Shown piece by piece: positions 5,293-12,636 of a stretch of DNA of 64,000 nt. The position numbers were made by a program, and so were the translations under genes. The notes beneath the pieces are model-generated. The model was not told the DNA's origin and searched no databases. It was given only the letters and a program-made list of their open reading frames with translations. The first letter of the stretch is position 1; each line of letters opens with the position of its first letter. Source of the stretch: a virus. The stretch lies in IMG/VR virus record IMGVR_UViG_3300044712_002165, positions 1 through 64,000 of that record; one strand, 5' to 3'.

Positions 5293-5940
5293 GTGCGTGT
5301 CATCACCTGCGTCAGCGTTGCGCTCACAACGCACTGCAACCTGGCCTGTCCAGACTGTTGCTGCGATATTCCGCGGCGCGGCGGAGGCACTCCGGTCGCC
5401 TGGGAGTATCTGGAGCTGGCAGCACAGCACTTGCGCGGCACGCCGAGGATCAATCTGACCGGTGGCGAGCCGACAACGCATCCACACTTCGATGAGTGGA
5501 GCCCGCGTTTTCGCGATCTGTTTCAGTGCTCGAAGCTGACCGTGGAGACGAATGGAATTTTGTCTACGAAACACGTGGACGCTCTGAGGTGCTACGATAC
5601 TGTATACGTTACGCACTACACGCCCGACACGTTCAAGGACGCGCCTTCGTACTACAGGGTGGACAACTCCAGGCAAATTGAAATTCTGCGCGAGGCGCTC
5701 GGCGACCGGCTCTACGTCAAGCCGTACATGTACCACCAGCCCAGACGCGAGCAGCGTGGTACCAAGCCTTGCGCCGCGGCCTTTTCGGAGACGGTGGCCT
5801 TCTGGAACGGCAAGCTGTTTCCGTGCTGCCTGGCTGACGGTGTTCCGAATGCGGTCGGCATTCCCTTGACGGACGATTGGCGAACGCGCATACACGAAGT
5901 GCAGCCTCCATGCGCGACCTGTTTTTTCGCAGTTCCATAG
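5293..5940 (+). CDS. Radical SAM protein with C-terminal Cys-rich (SPASM-like) region
   Basis: CNLACPDC, TGGEP, ETNG, PCC...CATC. Confidence 0.9.
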   Translation: MRVITCVSVALTTHCNLACPDCCCDIPRRGGGTPVAWEYLELAAQHLRGTPRINLTGGEPTTHPHFDEWSPRFRDLFQCSKLTVETNGILSTKHVDALRCYDTVYVTHYTPDTFKDAPSYYRVDNSRQIEILREALGDRLYVKPYMYHQPRREQRGTKPCAAAFSETVAFWNGKLFPCCLADGVPNAVGIPLTDDWRTRIHEVQPPCATCFFAVP

Positions 5941-7174: not shown

Positions 7175-7595
7175 GGGGGTGTACTGGTATCGATCTGTGT
7201 AAACAGATCGGTTGCTGCGTGCCGAGGATGATCGTTGGCCTCGTAAAATCTGCGATCAAAACATCAACTGCCAACAGGCTGAGTGATGAGTCGGTCCTCG
7301 CGGAAGCGGAAGCCATCCTGGCCAACCCGGATGCTTTCCTCCCCGCGGAGGTCGAAGCCGTGGCCTAACAAGGTCACCCGGTTGCCTGTAGACGCCTGCT
7401 AAGCAGGGTCAACCGTCATCAGCAGGATCGTGGCGCTTCGAGCAGTGTCGAAGCTCCGGCAGCTGGGTCAAGCTGCACCACAGGCTCTGCGCGATTTTGC
7501 TGATTCAGCGCAGCCTGGACTCAAATCAGCTATGCACGTAGACGCGGCCGGTTGTAGACGCAGAGACGCGGGTTCAACTCCCGCCACCTCCACCA
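7175..7595 (+). ncRNA. ssrA: tmRNA
   Basis: 5' GGGGGTG with G3:U70, 3' T arm plus CACCTCCACCA; tag frame 7270-7368 ANRLSDESVLAEAEAILANPDAFLPAEVEAVA*. Confidence 0.92.
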
Positions 7596-7599
7596 TTTT

Positions 7600-8069
7600 C
7601 GCGCCGCCAAGCTCCGGCTAACCGTGAGGGCTCCGTTGATCCGGTGTACGACAGTTGAAAGATGCACCGGGGAGTAGAGCCACTGTCGGCGGCGCGATTC
7701 AATTTGGTGAGCGCAGCGTCATGACCTGCGCGTTCTCGGCAAAATCCCGTCTGCATAGTGCGTACGAACGAAAGCGGCCAAGCCTGTAGAAGGCGTCAGG
7801 GTGGATATTCGTCGGTGAAAATCCGAAGGCCGAGACACCTTTTTCGTAAACAATACCGCAAAGGTTAGTGGGTTCAGCAGCATCCCGCGACGGTGGAACC
7901 CTTAGGCTGCCAGGCAGAGGTGCGGTGACTCTGCCAACGATTTTGGGGACTACGGACGCGCACCATGGTCAAAAAGCGCGTCCCCGCTGAAAGCTTCGCC
8001 TGACCAGCGTTGTGATGTAGGCTAAACCCCACGCCTGGACGATGAGTGCACGTAGTCGTCCAGTGCCCC
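7600..8069 (+). ncRNA. Four tandem unannotated structured RNA modules (7600-7696, 7706-7839, 7845-7939, 7944-8069)
   Basis: Strong stems (cgcgccgcc/ggcggcgcg; tctcggc/gccgaga; ggcagag/ctctgcc; ggacgcgc/gcgcgtcc), separated by T runs; no credible ORF. Confidence 0.55.
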
Positions 8070-8073
8070 TTTC

Positions 8074-8254
8074 ACGAGCCGAAGGCTAGGGTTATCATAA
8101 CGGTCCTAAGGTAGCGACGCTCCGGTGACGGACTTAGCGAGGACGACGAGTCTGCTGTAGCCGTAGATAAATTGTCCGTTTCGATGACGGTCATCGCATG
8201 AATCCGCGACCCGTACAGAAGACCGAAAAACATCCTATCCGCACACTTGCTCGT
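8074..8254 (+). ncRNA. Y RNA with a 23S rRNA-like insert
   Basis: Ro60-binding bulged helix ACGAG-CCGA...CACTTG-CTCGT, second stem ggctaggg/tcctatcc, TTATCAT motif shared with the neighbouring Y RNA. Confidence 0.75.
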
Positions 8255-8264
8255 TTACAGTTTT

Positions 8265-8408
8265 GTTGGTGGTCCGAACGTGTTGCTTATCATCGGTACC
8301 GCGGGTCGCAGGTTCAAATCCTGCCGTCTCGGCTTTCGATCCGAGGCGTAGCTCAGCCTGGTTAGAGCAGCGGTCAGCATTTGCGACGCGATCCACTTGA
8401 TCACCGAC
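8265..8408 (+). ncRNA. yrlA: YrlA-type Y RNA with permuted tRNA-like domain
   Basis: GGTCCGA...CTTGATC helix; T arm, then closed acceptor hairpin, then D arm; directly upstream of Ro60. Confidence 0.88.
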
Positions 8409-8531
8409 TTCCTTTTCGTCCCCCTGGGTCGAAAGCGTTCGAGCCGCTCCCTTGCCTGAACGCGATACCCAAGAACGGCCGATGAGCACGGCCGGCGAAA
8501 GCGTTTGGGGAGTGCGCGTGCTCGTCCACAG

Positions 8532-10214
8532 ATGGCAAAGATCAGCACTGCCTCGTTTCACCGTCGGCGTTCCATTCCCGTCACTGAGCCCATCCCAGGG
8601 CGCAAGGAAATGGTGCCGAACTCCACTGGTGGCTACGCCTGGAAGGTCACCGAGTGGGATCAGCTCGACCGCTTCCTGATCCTGGGCGTCACTGGCGGCA
8701 CCTACTACATCGGCGAGCGCAAGCTCACCGATGACAACGCGGCTGCCGTCAAGGCGTGCATCCAGCTGGATGCCGGCCGTGTTGTTGACCGCGTCGTCGA
8801 GGTCTCCGTCGGAGGTCTCGCGCTCCGCAACGATCCGGCCATCTTCGCGCTCGCGCTCGTCGCTGCCAGCAACGACGCCGAGGCCAAGGCCAAGGTCGCT
8901 GCTGCGCTCCCGCAGGTCTGCCGCACCGGTACGCACCTGCTGCACTACGGCGATTACGTCAACGCTTTGCGCGGCTGGGGTCCCTCGGTCCGCAAGAGCG
9001 TCGCGTCCTGGTACACCGGCCGTGAGGCCGACAACCTGGCGTTCCAGGTCGGCAAGTATCAGAGCCGCGACAACTGGTCGCATCGCGACTTGCTGCGTCT
9101 CACGCACCCGAAGGCTCCGAACGAGGCCACCGACGCGGTTTTCCGGTGGATCGTTGGCGGCATGGAGGCTGTCAACGGCCGGACCGTGAAGCGCAAGGAC
9201 GGCAGCTCGGTCAAGTACCCGTCGCTGCGCGAGCACCTGCCTCGGTTCCTGGCTGCCATGGAAGAGGTCAAGGCAGCCAAGAAGGCCAAGGATGTGGTTC
9301 GGCTCATCACCGAGCACAACCTGCCTCGCGAGGTCATTCCGACCGAGTGGCTCAATGAGGTCGAGGTCTGGGAGGCGCTTCTCCAGAAGATGCCGCTCAC
9401 GGCCATGATCCGCAACCTGGGCAAGATGACCTCCATCGGCCTGGTTCGCCCGCTCTCCGCGGGCGCACGGCTCGTCAAGGAGCGCCTTGGCAACAAGGAC
9501 TACCTCCGGAAGAGCCGCATTCACCCAATCAGCGTCCTCGTGGCTGCGCGGACCTACGCGCAGGGCAAGGGCGTCAAGGGCAGCCTGTCCTGGAGCCCTG
9601 TGCCCGCCGTCCAGACGGCGCTGGATGAGGCGTTCTACGCCACGTTCGGCAACGTCCGGAAGATCGGCAAGCCGGTTCTGATCGCGCTCGACGTGTCCGG
9701 TTCCATGGGTTCGTCCGCGGCCGGTACGGTCCTGCGCGCCTGCGAGGCGACGGCAGCAATGTCGCTCGTCTGGCTGAACACGGAGCCCGAGGTTCACGTG
9801 TTCGGTTTCGGAAGTACGTTCCGCGAACTCGGCATCCGCAAGGGCATGACCCTGGAGGCTGCGTGCCAGAAGGCCGTGCAGGCGAACTTCGGTTCGACCA
9901 ACATCGGTCTGGCGGTTGAGTACGCGGAGCAGCACAAGATCGATGTCGGCGGCTTCATCGTCATGACCGACAACGAGGGCAACACGGGTGAGCAGCCCGC
10001 AAAGGTGATGGAGCGCTACCGCAAGGCCCGCGTTCCTGACGCTCGCCTCGTGATGGCTGCCACGTCAGCCAATCAGTATCGGGCAAGCGACCCGAACGAC
10101 AAGTGGAGCCTGGATGTGGCGGGTTTCGATCCGTCAGTCCCCACGGTCGTCAACAACTTCATCCGCGGCAGCGCGGGCGAGGAAACTGTTGACGAGCCCG
10201 AGTCGGAGGAGTAA
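8532..10214 (+). CDS. rsr: Ro60/TROVE-domain RNA-binding protein with vWA domain
   Basis: NSTGGY, LDRFLILG..GGTYY, KYQSR..WSHRDLLRL.H, MPLTAMIRNLG, DVSGSM, TDNE, GFD. Confidence 0.95.
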   Translation: MAKISTASFHRRRSIPVTEPIPGRKEMVPNSTGGYAWKVTEWDQLDRFLILGVTGGTYYIGERKLTDDNAAAVKACIQLDAGRVVDRVVEVSVGGLALRNDPAIFALALVAASNDAEAKAKVAAALPQVCRTGTHLLHYGDYVNALRGWGPSVRKSVASWYTGREADNLAFQVGKYQSRDNWSHRDLLRLTHPKAPNEATDAVFRWIVGGMEAVNGRTVKRKDGSSVKYPSLREHLPRFLAAMEEVKAAKKAKDVVRLITEHNLPREVIPTEWLNEVEVWEALLQKMPLTAMIRNLGKMTSIGLVRPLSAGARLVKERLGNKDYLRKSRIHPISVLVAARTYAQGKGVKGSLSWSPVPAVQTALDEAFYATFGNVRKIGKPVLIALDVSGSMGSSAAGTVLRACEATAAMSLVWLNTEPEVHVFGFGSTFRELGIRKGMTLEAACQKAVQANFGSTNIGLAVEYAEQHKIDVGGFIVMTDNEGNTGEQPAKVMERYRKARVPDARLVMAATSANQYRASDPNDKWSLDVAGFDPSVPTVVNNFIRGSAGEETVDEPESEE

Positions 10215-12063: not shown

Positions 12064-12636
12064 ATGACTGTAGCCGCATTACTCAAGCAGCCCGTGCTGA
12101 TCCTGAACAGGAACTGGCAGGCTATCGAGGAAACCACCGTCGAGACGGCGCTGGGTGACGTGTTCCGTGGCCAGAAGCGTGCCATCGACACCGACACCAT
12201 GCAGGCCATGACCTGGGACGAGTGGGCGCGGCTACCGGTTCGTGCCAACGACGAGTCCATCAGCACGACCAAGGGTCGCGTGCGCGTGCCCCGTGTGATC
12301 GTCGCAGCCTGGGCCGGCATGCCCCGCAAGCGGCCGAAGAAGAACGGCCGAGGCGTAGCTGCCAGGGACAAGTTCATCTGCGCCTACACCGGCAAGTTCG
12401 CACCCGACGGAAACGTAGACCACGTGATCCCGTTGGGTCAGGGCGGCTCCGGCGACTGGGAAAACCTGGTCTGGTCGGACCGGGAGATCAACCACCGAAA
12501 GGGCAACCGTACACCGGAACAGGCAGGCTTACGCCTACTGCGCAAACCGTTTACGCCAACGGAACTGCCTGCTGTCGCTTTGATCGACCCGAAGCACCCG
12601 ACCTGGGAACACTTCTGCGTCGTGAAAAAGCGTTGA
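12064..12636 (+). CDS. HNH endonuclease (McrA-like)
   Basis: LILNRNW, RDKFICAYTG, VDHVIP..GG..WENLV...N..KGNRTP. Confidence 0.9.
   Translation: MTVAALLKQPVLILNRNWQAIEETTVETALGDVFRGQKRAIDTDTMQAMTWDEWARLPVRANDESISTTKGRVRVPRVIVAAWAGMPRKRPKKNGRGVAARDKFICAYTGKFAPDGNVDHVIPLGQGGSGDWENLVWSDREINHRKGNRTPEQAGLRLLRKPFTPTELPAVALIDPKHPTWEHFCVVKKR

What the first reader, a model, noticed from the sequence alone, without database searches (positions are those of the whole stretch)
8074..8254. Y RNA whose cargo domain is a colinear miniature of 23S rRNA
Seen: this RNA has the same Ro60-binding scaffold and TTATCAT motif as the adjacent YrlA-type RNA, but in place of the tRNA mimic it carries ATAACGGTCCTAAGGTAGCGA (8097-8117). 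Established: this 21-mer is identical to conserved 23S rRNA positions 1916-1936 in E. coli numbering (H69-H70) and is the core of the I-CeuI site. Weaker matches follow in rRNA order: AAATT-hairpin-GCATGAAT (8169-8203, like H71 and the return strand of H70) and ACCCG..AAGACCGAAAAAC (8209-8231, like ACCCGCGGCAAGACGGAAAGAC around A2058). Inference: Ro60 displays a tRNA decoy and an rRNA decoy to absorb rRNA-targeting toxins, modifiers or ribosome factors. I know of no described rRNA-mimicking Y RNA.
Basis: partly seen in the sequence, partly recalled or inferred. Interest (0 to 1): 0.88.

Follow-up and report, generated by a model that had tools for sequence, protein, structure and literature searches.

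The report
Phage Y RNA mimicking 23S rRNA core
Next to its Ro60 gene this uncultured phage encodes a small RNA with a Ro60-docking stem whose body is a shrunken, re-wired copy of the 23S rRNA junction that faces the small ribosomal subunit, so Ro60 partner RNAs appear to imitate ribosomal RNA as well as tRNA.

Summary
The 21-mer at 8097-8117 is identical to real 23S rRNA (E. coli 1916-1936). It is the only rRNA-like stretch in the window. It sits in an RNA with the Y-RNA hallmarks: closing stem, GNCGAA motif, and position 278 nt upstream of a TROVE/Ro60 gene beside a YrlA-type RNA.

GCAUGAAU is a variable hairpin loop, and the "A2058" block scores no better than shuffled sequence.

The RNA belongs to a conserved structured family: about 50 distinct members in phage tRNA arrays and in bacterial tRNA arrays, often beside Ro60 genes. 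Rfam 15 has no model for it, and I found no paper describing it. A covariance model built here hits the window at 42.9 bits, and 17 of its 24 pairs show compensatory changes.

Family blocks map to 23S ~1829-1845, 1896-1913 and 1916-1936. The module is therefore a circularly permuted miniature of the H67/H68/H69/H71 junction. In the window the Ro60 stem stands where the H69 loop would be.

Function is inferred. The RNA most likely lets the Ro60 particle engage whatever recognises this interface of the 50S subunit, possibly the 30S subunit. The family is rare: none in 80 other Ro60-bearing phage loci. This scan noted the same mimic before on other DNA.

The parts
8074..8254 (+). Whole RNA ('RNA-1'): Y-type scaffold plus 23S domain-IV junction mimic. 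Ends are inferred from the closing stem and the following U-rich tract 8254-8266.
8074..8079 (+). Lower closing stem, 5' strand ACGAGC, pairs with GCUCGU at 8249-8254
   Evidence: MFE folds; coordinates
8078..8085 (+). GCCGAAGG, which matches the bacterial Y-RNA motif GNCGAAN0-1G (proposed Ro60 contact)
   Evidence: Motif defined in PMC4201824. Strict motif found in 11 of 51 family members against 1.0 expected.
8084..8092 (+). Upper scaffold stem, 5' strand GG.UAGGGU, pairs with AUCCUA.CC at 8232-8240
   Evidence: Equivalent stems covary in L023, L021 and L019 (read).
8092..8098 (+). UUAUCAU linker motif, shared with the adjacent YrlA (8286-8292) and with YrlA-type RNAs of relatives
8097..8117 (+). 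21-mer identical to 23S rRNA 1916-1936: 3' half of the H69 loop, H69 3' strand, CUAAG triloop, GUAGCGA
   Evidence: 23S structure line from Rfam LSU.
8101..8105 (+). P1 5' strand CGGUC (H69 3' strand), pairs with GACCG at 8221-8225 (equivalent of the H69 5' strand GGCCG)
   Evidence: MFE; RNAalifold; 89% paired over 55 sequences. The relative X3 has 8222 A>G, which gives GGCCG.
8118..8134 (+). GNRA hairpin (UCCG-GUGA-CGGA) at the position of H70/H71
   Evidence: All five pairs of this helix show compensatory changes in the family (helix 3)
8135..8140 (+). Second UAGCGA strand, positional equivalent of the 1962-1970 return strand
   Evidence: Conserved in nearly all members. The mapping to 23S is inferred.
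8141..8177 (+). H67-like stem GGAC:GUCC (8141-8144 with 8174-8177) closed by a cap hairpin UCUGC-UGUAGCC-GUAGA (8151-8167)
   Evidence: Canonical pairs. L023 has GCGGU:ACUGC plus a GCGA-capped hairpin at the same place. X6 8143 A>G keeps the pair.
8178..8187 (+). Degenerate 'block E' GUUUCGAUGA, homologous to family GUGCCCACUGC and so to 23S ~1833-1843
   Evidence: The family block-E weight matrix tops at 23S ~1829-1845 in all five 23S genes scanned. The window's assignment is by alignment with L023, L021 and L017 and is inferred.
8188..8213 (+). Mini-H68 hairpin: CGG:CCG (8188-8190 with 8211-8213), CGC:GCG (8195-8197 with 8206-8208), loop AUGAAUCC
   Evidence: L023 has CGA:UCG and CGCA:UGCG. 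The X3 changes 8198, 8203, 8204 and the insertion after 8192 fall in the loop or internal loop.
8214..8225 (+). 'Block G' UACAGAAGACCG, equivalent to 23S GGUAAACGGCGGCCG (H68 3' base plus H69 5' strand)
   Evidence: The family matrix ranks 23S 1896-1913 first or second. L021's block aligns to 1895-1914 at 16/20 (shuffle fraction 0.015).
8262..8425 (+). Adjacent YrlA-type Y RNA with a tRNA-like module
   Evidence: Rfam YrlA 32.6 bits, below its gathering score of 69; fold z-score -2.0
8532..10214 (+). Ro60 gene (TROVE and Ro60 vWA domains)
   Evidence: phage relatives are annotated as Ro-like RNA-binding protein
7175..7595 (+). tmRNA gene at the head of the non-coding RNA block (context)

Best explanation
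RNA-1 (about 8074-8254) is a Y RNA. Its paired ends carry the Ro60-docking stem, the same design as the YrlA next to it. Its body is a miniature of the four-way junction of 23S rRNA domain IV, formed by H67, the base of H68, the H69 stem and H71.

The copy is circularly permuted. It starts in the 3' half of the H69 loop and runs through the H69 3' strand and the invariant CUAAGGUAGCGA joiner. Next come a GNRA hairpin in place of H70/H71, a second GCGA strand, a capped H67-like stem and a stump of H68. It ends with the H69 5' strand, which pairs back to the start. Ro60 therefore sits where the tip of H69 would be.

Shown: the sequence identity, membership of a covarying family, the mapping of family blocks to 23S, and the link to Ro60 genes.

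Inferred: the RNA is bound by the phage Ro60 and acts as a molecular mimic. It would let the Ro60 particle, perhaps with a host exoribonuclease such as PNPase as in known Ro60/Y RNA complexes, engage a partner that normally recognises this subunit-interface face of the 50S subunit. My preferred partner is the 30S platform and h44, which meet these nucleotides in bridges B2b, B2c and B3 (about 25% on its own). An rRNA-specific enzyme or assembly factor is the next choice. The neighbouring tRNA mimic would address the same machine.
For: 21/21 identity to real 23S, unique in the window.

Y-RNA features: GNCGAA motif, closing stem, a scaffold shared with the adjacent YrlA, and a Ro60 gene 278 nt downstream.

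Family: exact-word scans found about 50 distinct non-rRNA members in phage tRNA arrays and bacterial tRNA arrays. Model R1 hits the window end to end at 42.9 bits, E=3.8e-8, whereas real 23S reaches only 18-26 bits. Of all cells 90% are paired against 71% in shuffles and at most 43% when partners are slid, and 17 of 24 pairs change on both sides.

Mapping: the block-E matrix has its top 23S score at ~1829-1845 in all five 23S genes scanned, 9.4-14.7 bits against a runner-up of 0.8 in the enterobacterial gene and at most 4.1 in the others. Block G ranks 1896-1913 first or second. The H68 base pairs UGC...GUA match 23S UGCCGG...CCGGUA.

Window fold: every proposed helix is canonical and has a compensated counterpart in L023. 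All 10 substitutions and 1 insertion in two near-identical relatives fall in loops or linkers, or keep a pair (8143, 8222).

Ro60 link: a TROVE gene was found in 15 of 19 RNA-bearing bacterial genomes. For 11 of them tblastn found it inside the fetched locus of at most 8 kb, mostly 0.2-3 kb from the RNA. The background is 10 of 151 sampled Planctomycetota. TROVE ORFs are also present in the three most complete phage records that carry the RNA.

Precedent: phage Ro60 binds phage Y-like RNAs and host PNPase (PMC12135203). YrlA mimics tRNA (PMC4201824).
Against: No binding or expression data exist. RNA-1 alone folds no better than shuffles (z=-0.37), and the proposed fold (-45.3 kcal/mol when enforced) is not the minimum-free-energy fold (-54.8).

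The middle of the window RNA does not fit model R1. Its H67/H68 assignment rests on one close homologue plus micro-variation.

The 17-mer is invariant by ascertainment, so P1 shows only one-sided changes. The R1 alignment is fitted to the structure.

Four of 19 bacterial genomes with the module show no TROVE gene, and some members use a different scaffold without CGAA. The module can therefore work without Ro60.

None of 80 Ro60-anchored phage loci has it.

The 30S-docking idea rests on bridge contacts recalled from memory and was not tested.
Confidence: 0.6

Rival explanations
1. One reading: a colinear miniature of 23S (H69-H70, H71 with its return strand, then the A2058 region) displayed by Ro60 as a decoy. 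It would absorb rRNA-targeting toxins, modifiers or factors such as helix-70-cutting MazF, RluD, RlmH or RRF.
For: The 21-mer identity is real. A 9-mer CGCAUGAAU matches SAR11-type 23S at the right relative place. A hairpin with a 7-nt loop precedes it. Phage tRNA arrays are thought to replace host RNAs damaged by defence nucleases (my knowledge).
Against: The 9-mer has E=24 and is not kept in L023 or in a 98%-identical relative. The 'A2058' block is at shuffle level, and the family maps instead to 1829-1845 and 1896-1913. The 1937-1944 AAUUCCUU segment is deleted in all members. No UUCCU occurs in RNA-1. In the window the H69 loop and 5' strand are missing locally, so loop-specific factors have no target.
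Confidence: 0.1
2. A pseudo-substrate or recruiter. The module imitates the part of 23S rRNA that Ro60 itself, or rRNA-modifying and rRNA-processing enzymes, handle. It would then gate Ro60's cavity or bring such enzymes or exonucleases to the particle, much as YrlA is treated as a tRNA by tRNA enzymes.
For: YrlA carries tRNA modifications and is a substrate of tRNA enzymes, and bacterial Ro60 works in 23S maturation, where bound Y RNA inhibits it (PMC4201824). By my knowledge of E. coli modification sites, the mimicked blocks cluster around G1835, 1911-1917 and C1962. G1835 is kept in the bacterial type (GUGCCC).
Against: In phage-type members the G1835 equivalent is U (GUUCCC) or is lost. 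U1939 is deleted. The H69 loop is absent in permuted members. No enzyme gene is linked to the RNA.
Confidence: 0.2
3. A free-standing rRNA mimic of tRNA arrays that does not depend on Ro60. It would be cut out of the array transcript by the tRNA-processing enzymes and act alone on ribosomes or their factors. The Y-like stem would be only a closing helix.
For: Members lie between tRNA genes, often abutting them. Four of 19 bacterial genomes with the module show no TROVE gene. Cyanobacterial and some other members lack CGAA. Five phage fragments with the RNA show no TROVE gene, although they are only 13-35% complete.
Against: The window RNA has the strict GNCGAA motif, shares its scaffold with YrlA and lies directly upstream of Ro60. 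TROVE is about 12-fold enriched among carriers.
Confidence: 0.12
4. No RNA function: a chance match, a captured scrap of host rDNA, or a DNA-level homing-endonuclease (I-CeuI-type) site.
For: The 21-mer lies inside the I-CeuI recognition sequence (my knowledge). An HNH endonuclease gene lies at 12064-12636. Some AT-rich phage contigs carry the same 22-mer outside any such RNA (L024, L025, L028, L032).
Against: Compensatory base changes across about 50 members, a conserved multi-helix architecture around the 21-mer, and linkage to Ro60. Flanks are unrelated to rDNA. Independent assemblies agree.
Confidence: 0.02

Closest known systems
YrlA-type bacterial and phage Y RNAs bound by Rsr/Ro60 (Rfam RF02553; Chen et al. 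2014, PMC4201824)
   Same: Encoded next to a Ro60 gene. Paired 5' and 3' ends carry the GNCGAA motif. The design is modular: a Ro60 stem plus an effector domain that imitates a cellular RNA. In the window it sits in tandem with a YrlA-type RNA that shares the scaffold (UUAUCAU, CACUUG).
   Different: The effector domain has no T arm, D arm or acceptor-like stem, and the Rfam YrlA model gives no hit on RNA-1. Instead it copies a 23S domain IV junction.
Yrl1 and Yrl2 of Thermus phage phiLo with phage Ro60 and host PNPase (PMC12135203)
   Same: Phage-encoded Y-like RNAs upstream of a phage Ro60 gene, recognised by a CGAA motif. Binding to phage Ro60 and assembly with host PNPase were shown in vitro.
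   Different: The text passages I searched in that paper mention no rRNA-like module. No sequence relation was tested here.
23S rRNA domain IV, H67-H71 (Rfam LSU_rRNA_bacteria RF02541)
   Same: 21 nt identical in the window (up to 29 nt in bacterial members). The helices are equivalent and the joiner strands are conserved: ~1829-1845, 1896-1913 and 1916-1936.
   Different: About 130 nt instead of about 150 nt of junction plus long arms. The strand order is circularly permuted. H68 and H71 are cut to stumps, 1937-1944 is deleted, and H67 is capped. It is not part of an rRNA gene, and the LSU model gives no hit at E up to 10.
rRNA mimics in ribosomal-protein leader RNAs such as the L1, L10 and L20 leaders (my knowledge)
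   Same: Short RNAs that copy a protein-binding piece of rRNA.
   Different: Those are cis-regulatory mRNA leaders that bind one ribosomal protein. This is a stand-alone RNA on a Ro60 scaffold, and it copies a largely protein-free interface junction.

Membership tests
Bacterial/phage Y RNA (Ro60 partner RNA) | Encoded within about 2 kb of a Ro60/Rsr gene | tested here: met
   RNA-1 ends at about 8254. The Ro60 ORF starts at 8532 and has TROVE 7.5e-44 and vWA_Ro60 4.7e-40.
Bacterial/phage Y RNA (Ro60 partner RNA) | GNCGAAN0-1G motif near the 5' end (Chen et al. 2014) | tested here: met
   GCCGAAGG at 8078-8085
Bacterial/phage Y RNA (Ro60 partner RNA) | The 5' and 3' ends pair into a long stem interrupted by an internal loop or bulge | tested here: met
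   ACGAGC:GCUCGU and GG.UAGGGU:AUCCUA.CC in both the MFE and centroid folds. The 3' strand carries CACUUG, as in animal and bacterial Y RNAs.
Bacterial/phage Y RNA (Ro60 partner RNA) | Physically bound and stabilised by Ro60 | not testable with these tools
   No RNA-protein predictor or binding data were available. Only genomic linkage was measured.
YrlA subfamily (RF02553) | tRNA-like module (T arm, D arm, acceptor-like stem) that scores with the Rfam model | tested here: not met
   At E up to 10, the only YrlA hit in 7590-8560 is the neighbouring RNA at 8300-8372
Genuine 23S rRNA gene or fragment | Colinear match to the LSU model beyond a short word | tested here: not met
   No LSU hit at E up to 10. 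BLAST finds only the 21-mer. nhmmer with a 23S 1814-2083 profile aligns only 8094-8123.
Domain-IV-junction mimic family defined here (model R1) | Full-length match to the covariance model built from 11 bacterial and metagenomic members | tested here: met
   Window 8098-8225, 42.9 bits, E=3.8e-8, model positions 1-124. The middle part is aligned as an insertion.
Domain-IV-junction mimic family defined here (model R1) | P1 (CGGUC with GRCCG), a GNRA hairpin after GGUAGCGA, and a second UAGCGA | tested here: met
   8101-8105 with 8221-8225; UCCG-GUGA-CGGA at 8121-8132; UAGCGA at 8135-8140
Domain-IV-junction mimic family defined here (model R1) | Intact H69 hairpin (CCGU-AACUAUA-ACGG), as in the myxobacterial-type members | tested here: not met
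   The window has GGGUUAUCAUAACGG with no local 5' strand. The helix is made with the 3' block instead, which is the permuted type.

The most novel reading that the evidence does not exclude
Ro60 particles of phages and bacteria carry interchangeable look-alikes of ribosome ligands and ribosome parts: tRNA in YrlA, and here the 50S interface junction H67-H71. With these they would dock onto ribosomal subunits, the junction mimic occupying the 30S surface that normally meets the 50S subunit. Ro60 and its nuclease would thereby be aimed at, or free subunits shielded, during infection or stress. That would make Y RNAs a modular ribosome-targeting system, and it would give bacterial Ro60 a defined cellular target.
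Probability: 0.22. Interest if true: 0.92.

Novelty: new variant of a known kind. Interest (0 to 1): 0.8.

Why it matters
The function of the effector domains of bacterial Y RNAs is an open question, and so far the only recognised theme is tRNA mimicry. A second, independent mimic points to the ribosome as the object of Ro60 action. This mimic copies the most conserved subunit-interface junction of 23S rRNA. It is kept with compensatory changes in unrelated phages and bacteria, and it exists in two different strand topologies.

It also supplies concrete reagents. A roughly 130-nt RNA should fold like an isolated domain IV core and can be tested for binding to 30S subunits, ribosome factors or rRNA enzymes.

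The finding further suggests that a ribosomal junction can fold autonomously when circularly permuted. It adds an unannotated RNA family that annotation pipelines currently miss, or could mistake for rRNA fragments.

Tried and rejected
- DNA search of 7596-8540 against GenBank phages found no match.
- The exact word TTATCATAACGGTCCTAAGG in IMG/VR gave nothing, with the window's own record left out.
- Scans with block E/G words in IMG/VR gave nothing new.
- Fifteen Ro60-relative loci (13 of them searched with R1, exact 17-mer) and 80 more hold no family member, either by model R1 or by a fuzzy 18-mer with up to 3 mismatches. The RNA is therefore rare among Ro60 phages. That sample could not serve as an ascertainment-free test of conservation.
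- A phylum-wide R1 search of 151 Planctomycetota found only the centre genome, so no co-occurrence table could be built from it.
- A search with the L037-type TROVE protein alone found only itself.
- Duplex-based end finding for all members was too noisy and was dropped.
- The promoter and terminator scan was at background. Its single promoter-like hit uses TATCAT of the UUAUCAU motif and is not evidence.
- Expression: no listed holder is on record as RNA. Two runs labelled RNA-Seq gave short contigs over 7718-7867, 7968-8123 and 8305-8521. The RNA label is a guess, DNA carry-over was not excluded and no silent control stretch could be laid, so this is not used as evidence.
- Micro-variation gives no measurable depletion of changes in the 21-mer: 1 of 11 changes against 1.3 expected (my arithmetic).
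- Literature searches for an rRNA-mimicking Y RNA found nothing. The 2020 Annual Review on bacterial Ro60 is not held.
- A search for a paper listing the bridge contacts did not give a usable table, so those contacts are quoted from memory.
Full report
**Setting**

The window is the first 64 kb of a 75-kb IMG/VR virus record estimated to be 33% complete. Its left end is a translation island. It holds 13 tRNA genes and a tmRNA gene at 7175-7595. Then come about 930 nt without credible ORFs, a Ro60 gene at 8532-10214 with TROVE and Ro60-vWA domains, and more tRNAs. The nearest Ro60 proteins in GenBank phages are only about 40% identical and are annotated as Ro-like RNA-binding protein. The nearest in IMG/VR are 56-57% identical.

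Just upstream of Ro60 lies a YrlA-type Y RNA at about 8262-8425. Rfam YrlA scores 32.6 bits there, below its gathering score, and the fold z-score is -2.0. The finding, RNA-1, is the unit before it.

**Check of the observation**

The 21-mer ATAACGGTCCTAAGGTAGCGA is at 8097-8117 and occurs once in the record. A search of whole rRNA-operon loci against all 64 kb finds no other rRNA-like word except tRNA T-arm look-alikes. The numbering 1916-1936 fits the U positions 1911, 1915, 1917 and 1939 (my knowledge).

RNA-1 has the Y-RNA hallmarks:
- A closing stem, ACGAGC at 8074-8079 with GCUCGU at 8249-8254.
- An upper stem, 8084-8092 with 8232-8240.
- GCCGAAGG at 8078-8085, which fits the published motif GNCGAAN0-1G (PMC4201824).
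- A 3' CACUUG.

It shares UUAUCAU and the overall scaffold with the adjacent YrlA.

Contigs from other studies span the 21-mer and both flanks, so it is not an assembly chimera. These are X3 from groundwater (7855-8540, 13 differences) and X6 from activated sludge (7667-8191).

**The two weaker matches fail**

CGCAUGAAU is a 9-mer with E=24. In the X3 relative three of the eight bases of GCAUGAAU differ, at 8198, 8203 and 8204. The closest homologue, L023, has neither AAAUU nor GCAUGAAU.

The 3' block 8204-8233 aligns best to an unrelated part of 23S, and no better than shuffles. A 23S profile covering 1814-2083 aligns only 8094-8123 of the window.

**A family, not a singleton**

The exact 17-mer occurs in 20 IMG/VR loci. 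Two are real rRNA and several are unrelated oddities. Eight loci (six distinct sequences; two pairs are near-identical) share a common plan with RNA-1: L017 and L020, L019, L021, L023, L033, L035. The plan is:
- a Y-like 5' strand,
- AACGGUCCUAAGGUAGCGA,
- a GNRA-capped hairpin,
- a second UAGCGA,
- variable helices,
- a GUAC(A/G)GA(A/G)GCC block,
- a Y-like 3' strand.

All of these lie in phage tRNA arrays with YrlA-like RNAs nearby, and no Rfam family matches them.

A pattern that demands the second UAGCGA was run on the metagenome and genome collections. It gave 99 loci. About half are true 23S of SAR11-like lineages and the rest are family members. The bacterial carriers include Myxococcota, unclassified 'Deltaproteobacteria' and 'Proteobacteria' MAGs, Planctomycetota (among them a complete 7.5-Mb chromosome with two copies), Armatimonadota and filamentous cyanobacteria. 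There too the RNA sits in large tRNA arrays. After dereplication there are 51 distinct members.

One source genome, G011 (locus L118), is unpublished. It is one of 11 seed sequences and one of the TROVE-positive genomes. No conclusion depends on it, because L064, L131 and others show the same features.

**Link to Ro60**

tblastn finds a TROVE gene inside the fetched locus for 17 members, often 0.2-3 kb from the RNA. Genome-wide Pfam searches add more. In all, 15 of 19 RNA-bearing bacterial genomes have TROVE, against 10 of 151 in a phylum sample. The three most complete phage records with the RNA also have TROVE ORFs. The strict GNCGAA motif is found upstream in 11 of 51 members (1.0 expected) and CGAA in 27 of 51 (7.9 expected).

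The link is not absolute. Four genomes show no TROVE gene, and cyanobacterial and some other members use a different closing scaffold.

Conversely, the RNA is rare among Ro60 phages. None of 80 Ro60-anchored IMG/VR loci (plus or minus 8 kb, 1.24 Mb in all) contains it, by model or by fuzzy word.

**Structure and its relation to 23S**

I took the Rfam LSU structure line for this region and an alignment of 11-12 members. RNAalifold proposed a long-range helix between CGGUCCU and the 3' block, plus the GNRA hairpin and an H68-like stem. I added an H67-like stem and a cap stem seen by eye and built model R1 with 124 positions and 24 pairs.

R1 finds all family members. It hits the window at 42.9 bits (E=3.8e-8, 8098-8225, full length), while real 23S scores only 18-26 bits.

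On the 55-sequence alignment:
- 90% of cells are paired, against 71% in shuffles and at most 43% with slid partners.
- 17 of 24 pairs change on both sides.
- Every pair of the hairpin, H67-like, cap and H68-like helices shows compensatory changes.

Two caveats apply. The alignment is fitted to the model, and P1's 5' strand is fixed by the way members were found.

**Which parts of 23S are copied**

A weight matrix of family block E (UGCGUGCCCACUGCCG) was scanned over whole 23S genes. Its top score is at ACGCCUGCCCGGUGCCG in every one of the five genes scanned, 9.4-14.7 bits against a runner-up of 0.8 in the enterobacterial gene and at most 4.1 in the others. This is E. coli ~1829-1845 after allowing for a 2-nt insertion in L029, that is, the H67 5' strand and the H68 5' base.

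Block G of members that lack a local H69 5' strand (GGUAAGAGCGGCCGUAA) ranks 1896-1913 (GGUAAACGGCGGCCGUAA) first in three genes and second in two. L021's block aligns there at 16/20. The closing pairs of the H68 stump, UGC...GUA, are those of 23S UGCCGG...CCGGUA.

So the module contains the following, in this order:
- 1916-1936,
- a stump for H70/H71,
- a GCGA(A) strand at the place of 1962-1970,
- H67 closed by a cap,
- ~1829-1845,
- a stump of H68,
- 1896-1913.

This is a circular permutation of the H67/H68/H69/H71 four-way junction.

Myxobacterial-type members additionally keep CCGUAACUAUA before ACGG. That gives 29 nt identical to 23S and an intact H69 hairpin sequence, yet their 3' block (GCGACUG) can still pair with CGGUC. 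Members of the window's type have no local 5' strand and use G(G/A)CCG.

nhmmer gives independent if weak support. Its secondary hits place H68-3'/H69-5' or H67-5' profile segments downstream of the main hit in L087 (E=0.003), L019 (0.33) and others. No member has a credible hit to the 2043-2065 region.

**The window RNA in detail**

- P1: 8101-8105 with 8221-8225.
- GNRA hairpin: 8121-8124, GUGA, 8129-8132.
- UAGCGA: 8135-8140.
- H67-like stem GGAC:GUCC: 8141-8144 with 8174-8177.
- Cap hairpin: 8151-8167.
- Degenerate block E: 8178-8187.
- Mini-H68: 8188-8190 with 8211-8213, and 8195-8197 with 8206-8208, loop AUGAAUCC.
- Block G: 8214-8225.
- AAAAAC, then the scaffold 3' strand.

All helices are canonical. 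L023 has the same architecture with different, compensated helices: GCGGU:ACUGC, CGA:UCG and CGCA:UGCG.

In the two near-identical relatives all ten substitutions and the one insertion lie in loops or linkers, or preserve a pair. 8143 A>G gives G-U. 8222 A>G turns GACCG into the ribosomal GGCCG.

This fold is not the thermodynamic optimum: -45.3 kcal/mol when enforced against -54.8. RNA-1 alone has no significant fold z-score. The middle third therefore remains the least secure part.

**What it probably does**

Shown: a selected, structured mimic of the domain IV junction mounted on a Y-type stem, beside a tRNA mimic and Ro60.

Inferred: Ro60 binds the stem, and the module engages a partner that recognises this piece of the 50S subunit.

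In the window's type the H69 loop is replaced by the scaffold, and in all members 1937-1944 is deleted. This argues against RluD, RlmH, RRF, RumA and helix-70-cutting MazF as partners.

What is kept is the junction core. By my recollection of the bridge tables (Yusupov 2001; Schuwirth 2005; not verified here), the junction core makes bridges B2b and B2c (1832-1837, 1922) and H71 makes bridge B3, all with the 30S platform and h44. I therefore favour docking of the Ro60 particle on 30S subunits, or competition with 50S for them (about 25%). A pseudo-substrate or enzyme-recruiting role comes next (about 20%), then a decoy for an unknown factor.

The phiLo study gives precedent: it shows that phage Ro60 binds phage Y-like RNAs and host PNPase.

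**Novelty**

Rfam 15 has no model for this RNA, and full-text searches found no description.

Earlier AI notes of this same scan reported helix-69 look-alikes on phage Y RNAs in other genomes. They are not independent evidence, but they agree.

New here:
- the permuted-junction map, with statistical support for blocks E and G;
- the covariance model and pair counts;
- the window-specific fold checked against micro-variation;
- the refutation of the colinear and A2058 reading;
- the measures of rarity and of Ro60 linkage.

Noticed in passing
window 7596-8072: About 470 nt between the tmRNA and RNA-1 hold no credible ORF and fold into closed modules, each followed by a U run. One is closed by a 10-bp stem at 7599-7697. 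One lies at 7706-7840 and ends in ...CACCUUUUU. One lies at 7868-8030. A hairpin at 8032-8064 is followed by CCCCUUU. Fold z-scores are -2.3 and -2.1. No Rfam hit appears at E up to 10, and nothing resembles rRNA. The stretch is conserved at 95% or more in contigs of other studies.
   Followed up: partly
L024, L025, L028, L032 (IMG/VR loci): AT-rich phage contigs carry TATAACGGTCCTAAGGTAGCGA, 22 nt of the I-CeuI-type 23S site, in a context with no Y-like stem and no following hairpin/UAGCGA. This may be a DNA-level homing-endonuclease site or something else.
   Followed up: no
L022:3438-3480: A viral contig holds a 40-nt 23S-like fragment, ACGGTCCTAAGGTAGCGAAATTTCTTGTCGGGTAAGTTC (1919 to about 1957), embedded in unrelated AT-rich sequence.
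   Followed up: no
L026/L034 and L018/L036, L027/L030: Short variants. One is GGGTTATCTATAACGGTCCTAAGGTAGCGATA followed directly by a terminator-like hairpin. The others are hairpins in which UCCUAAG pairs with CUUAGGA around a GUAGCGx loop. They may be minimal or unrelated uses of the same word. L026 scores 26.8 bits with R1.
   Followed up: no
L120, L119, L135 (cyanobacterial MAG loci): Cyanobacterial members carry the junction mimic on a different closing scaffold (CUCGCACCCUAACAG ... CAACUUGUGCGAG, without CGAA). Two of the three genomes show no TROVE gene, so the module may be portable between scaffolds.
   Followed up: partly
L139 (G013 chromosome 4769257-4769375): The second copy in a complete planctomycete chromosome was found by the model and not by the exact word. 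It keeps ACGGUCCUAAGGUAG but has UCAA instead of CGA, and GAAGGCG instead of UAGCGAA. This gives a first look at variation outside the ascertained word.
   Followed up: partly
window 5293-5940 and 12064-12636: A radical-SAM protein gene lies inside the tRNA island, and an HNH endonuclease gene lies just beyond the Ro60 block. No link to the RNA was established.
   Followed up: no
L002:2080-2150: A relative with 56% identical Ro60 has a very short Y-like hairpin (GUCGGGUCGAACGUAAAGGGUUAUCUCUAAAAAUCGCCCUUUGCCACCACUUACCUGACAA) and several YrlA-like cores in tandem. It has no rRNA-like module.
   Followed up: no
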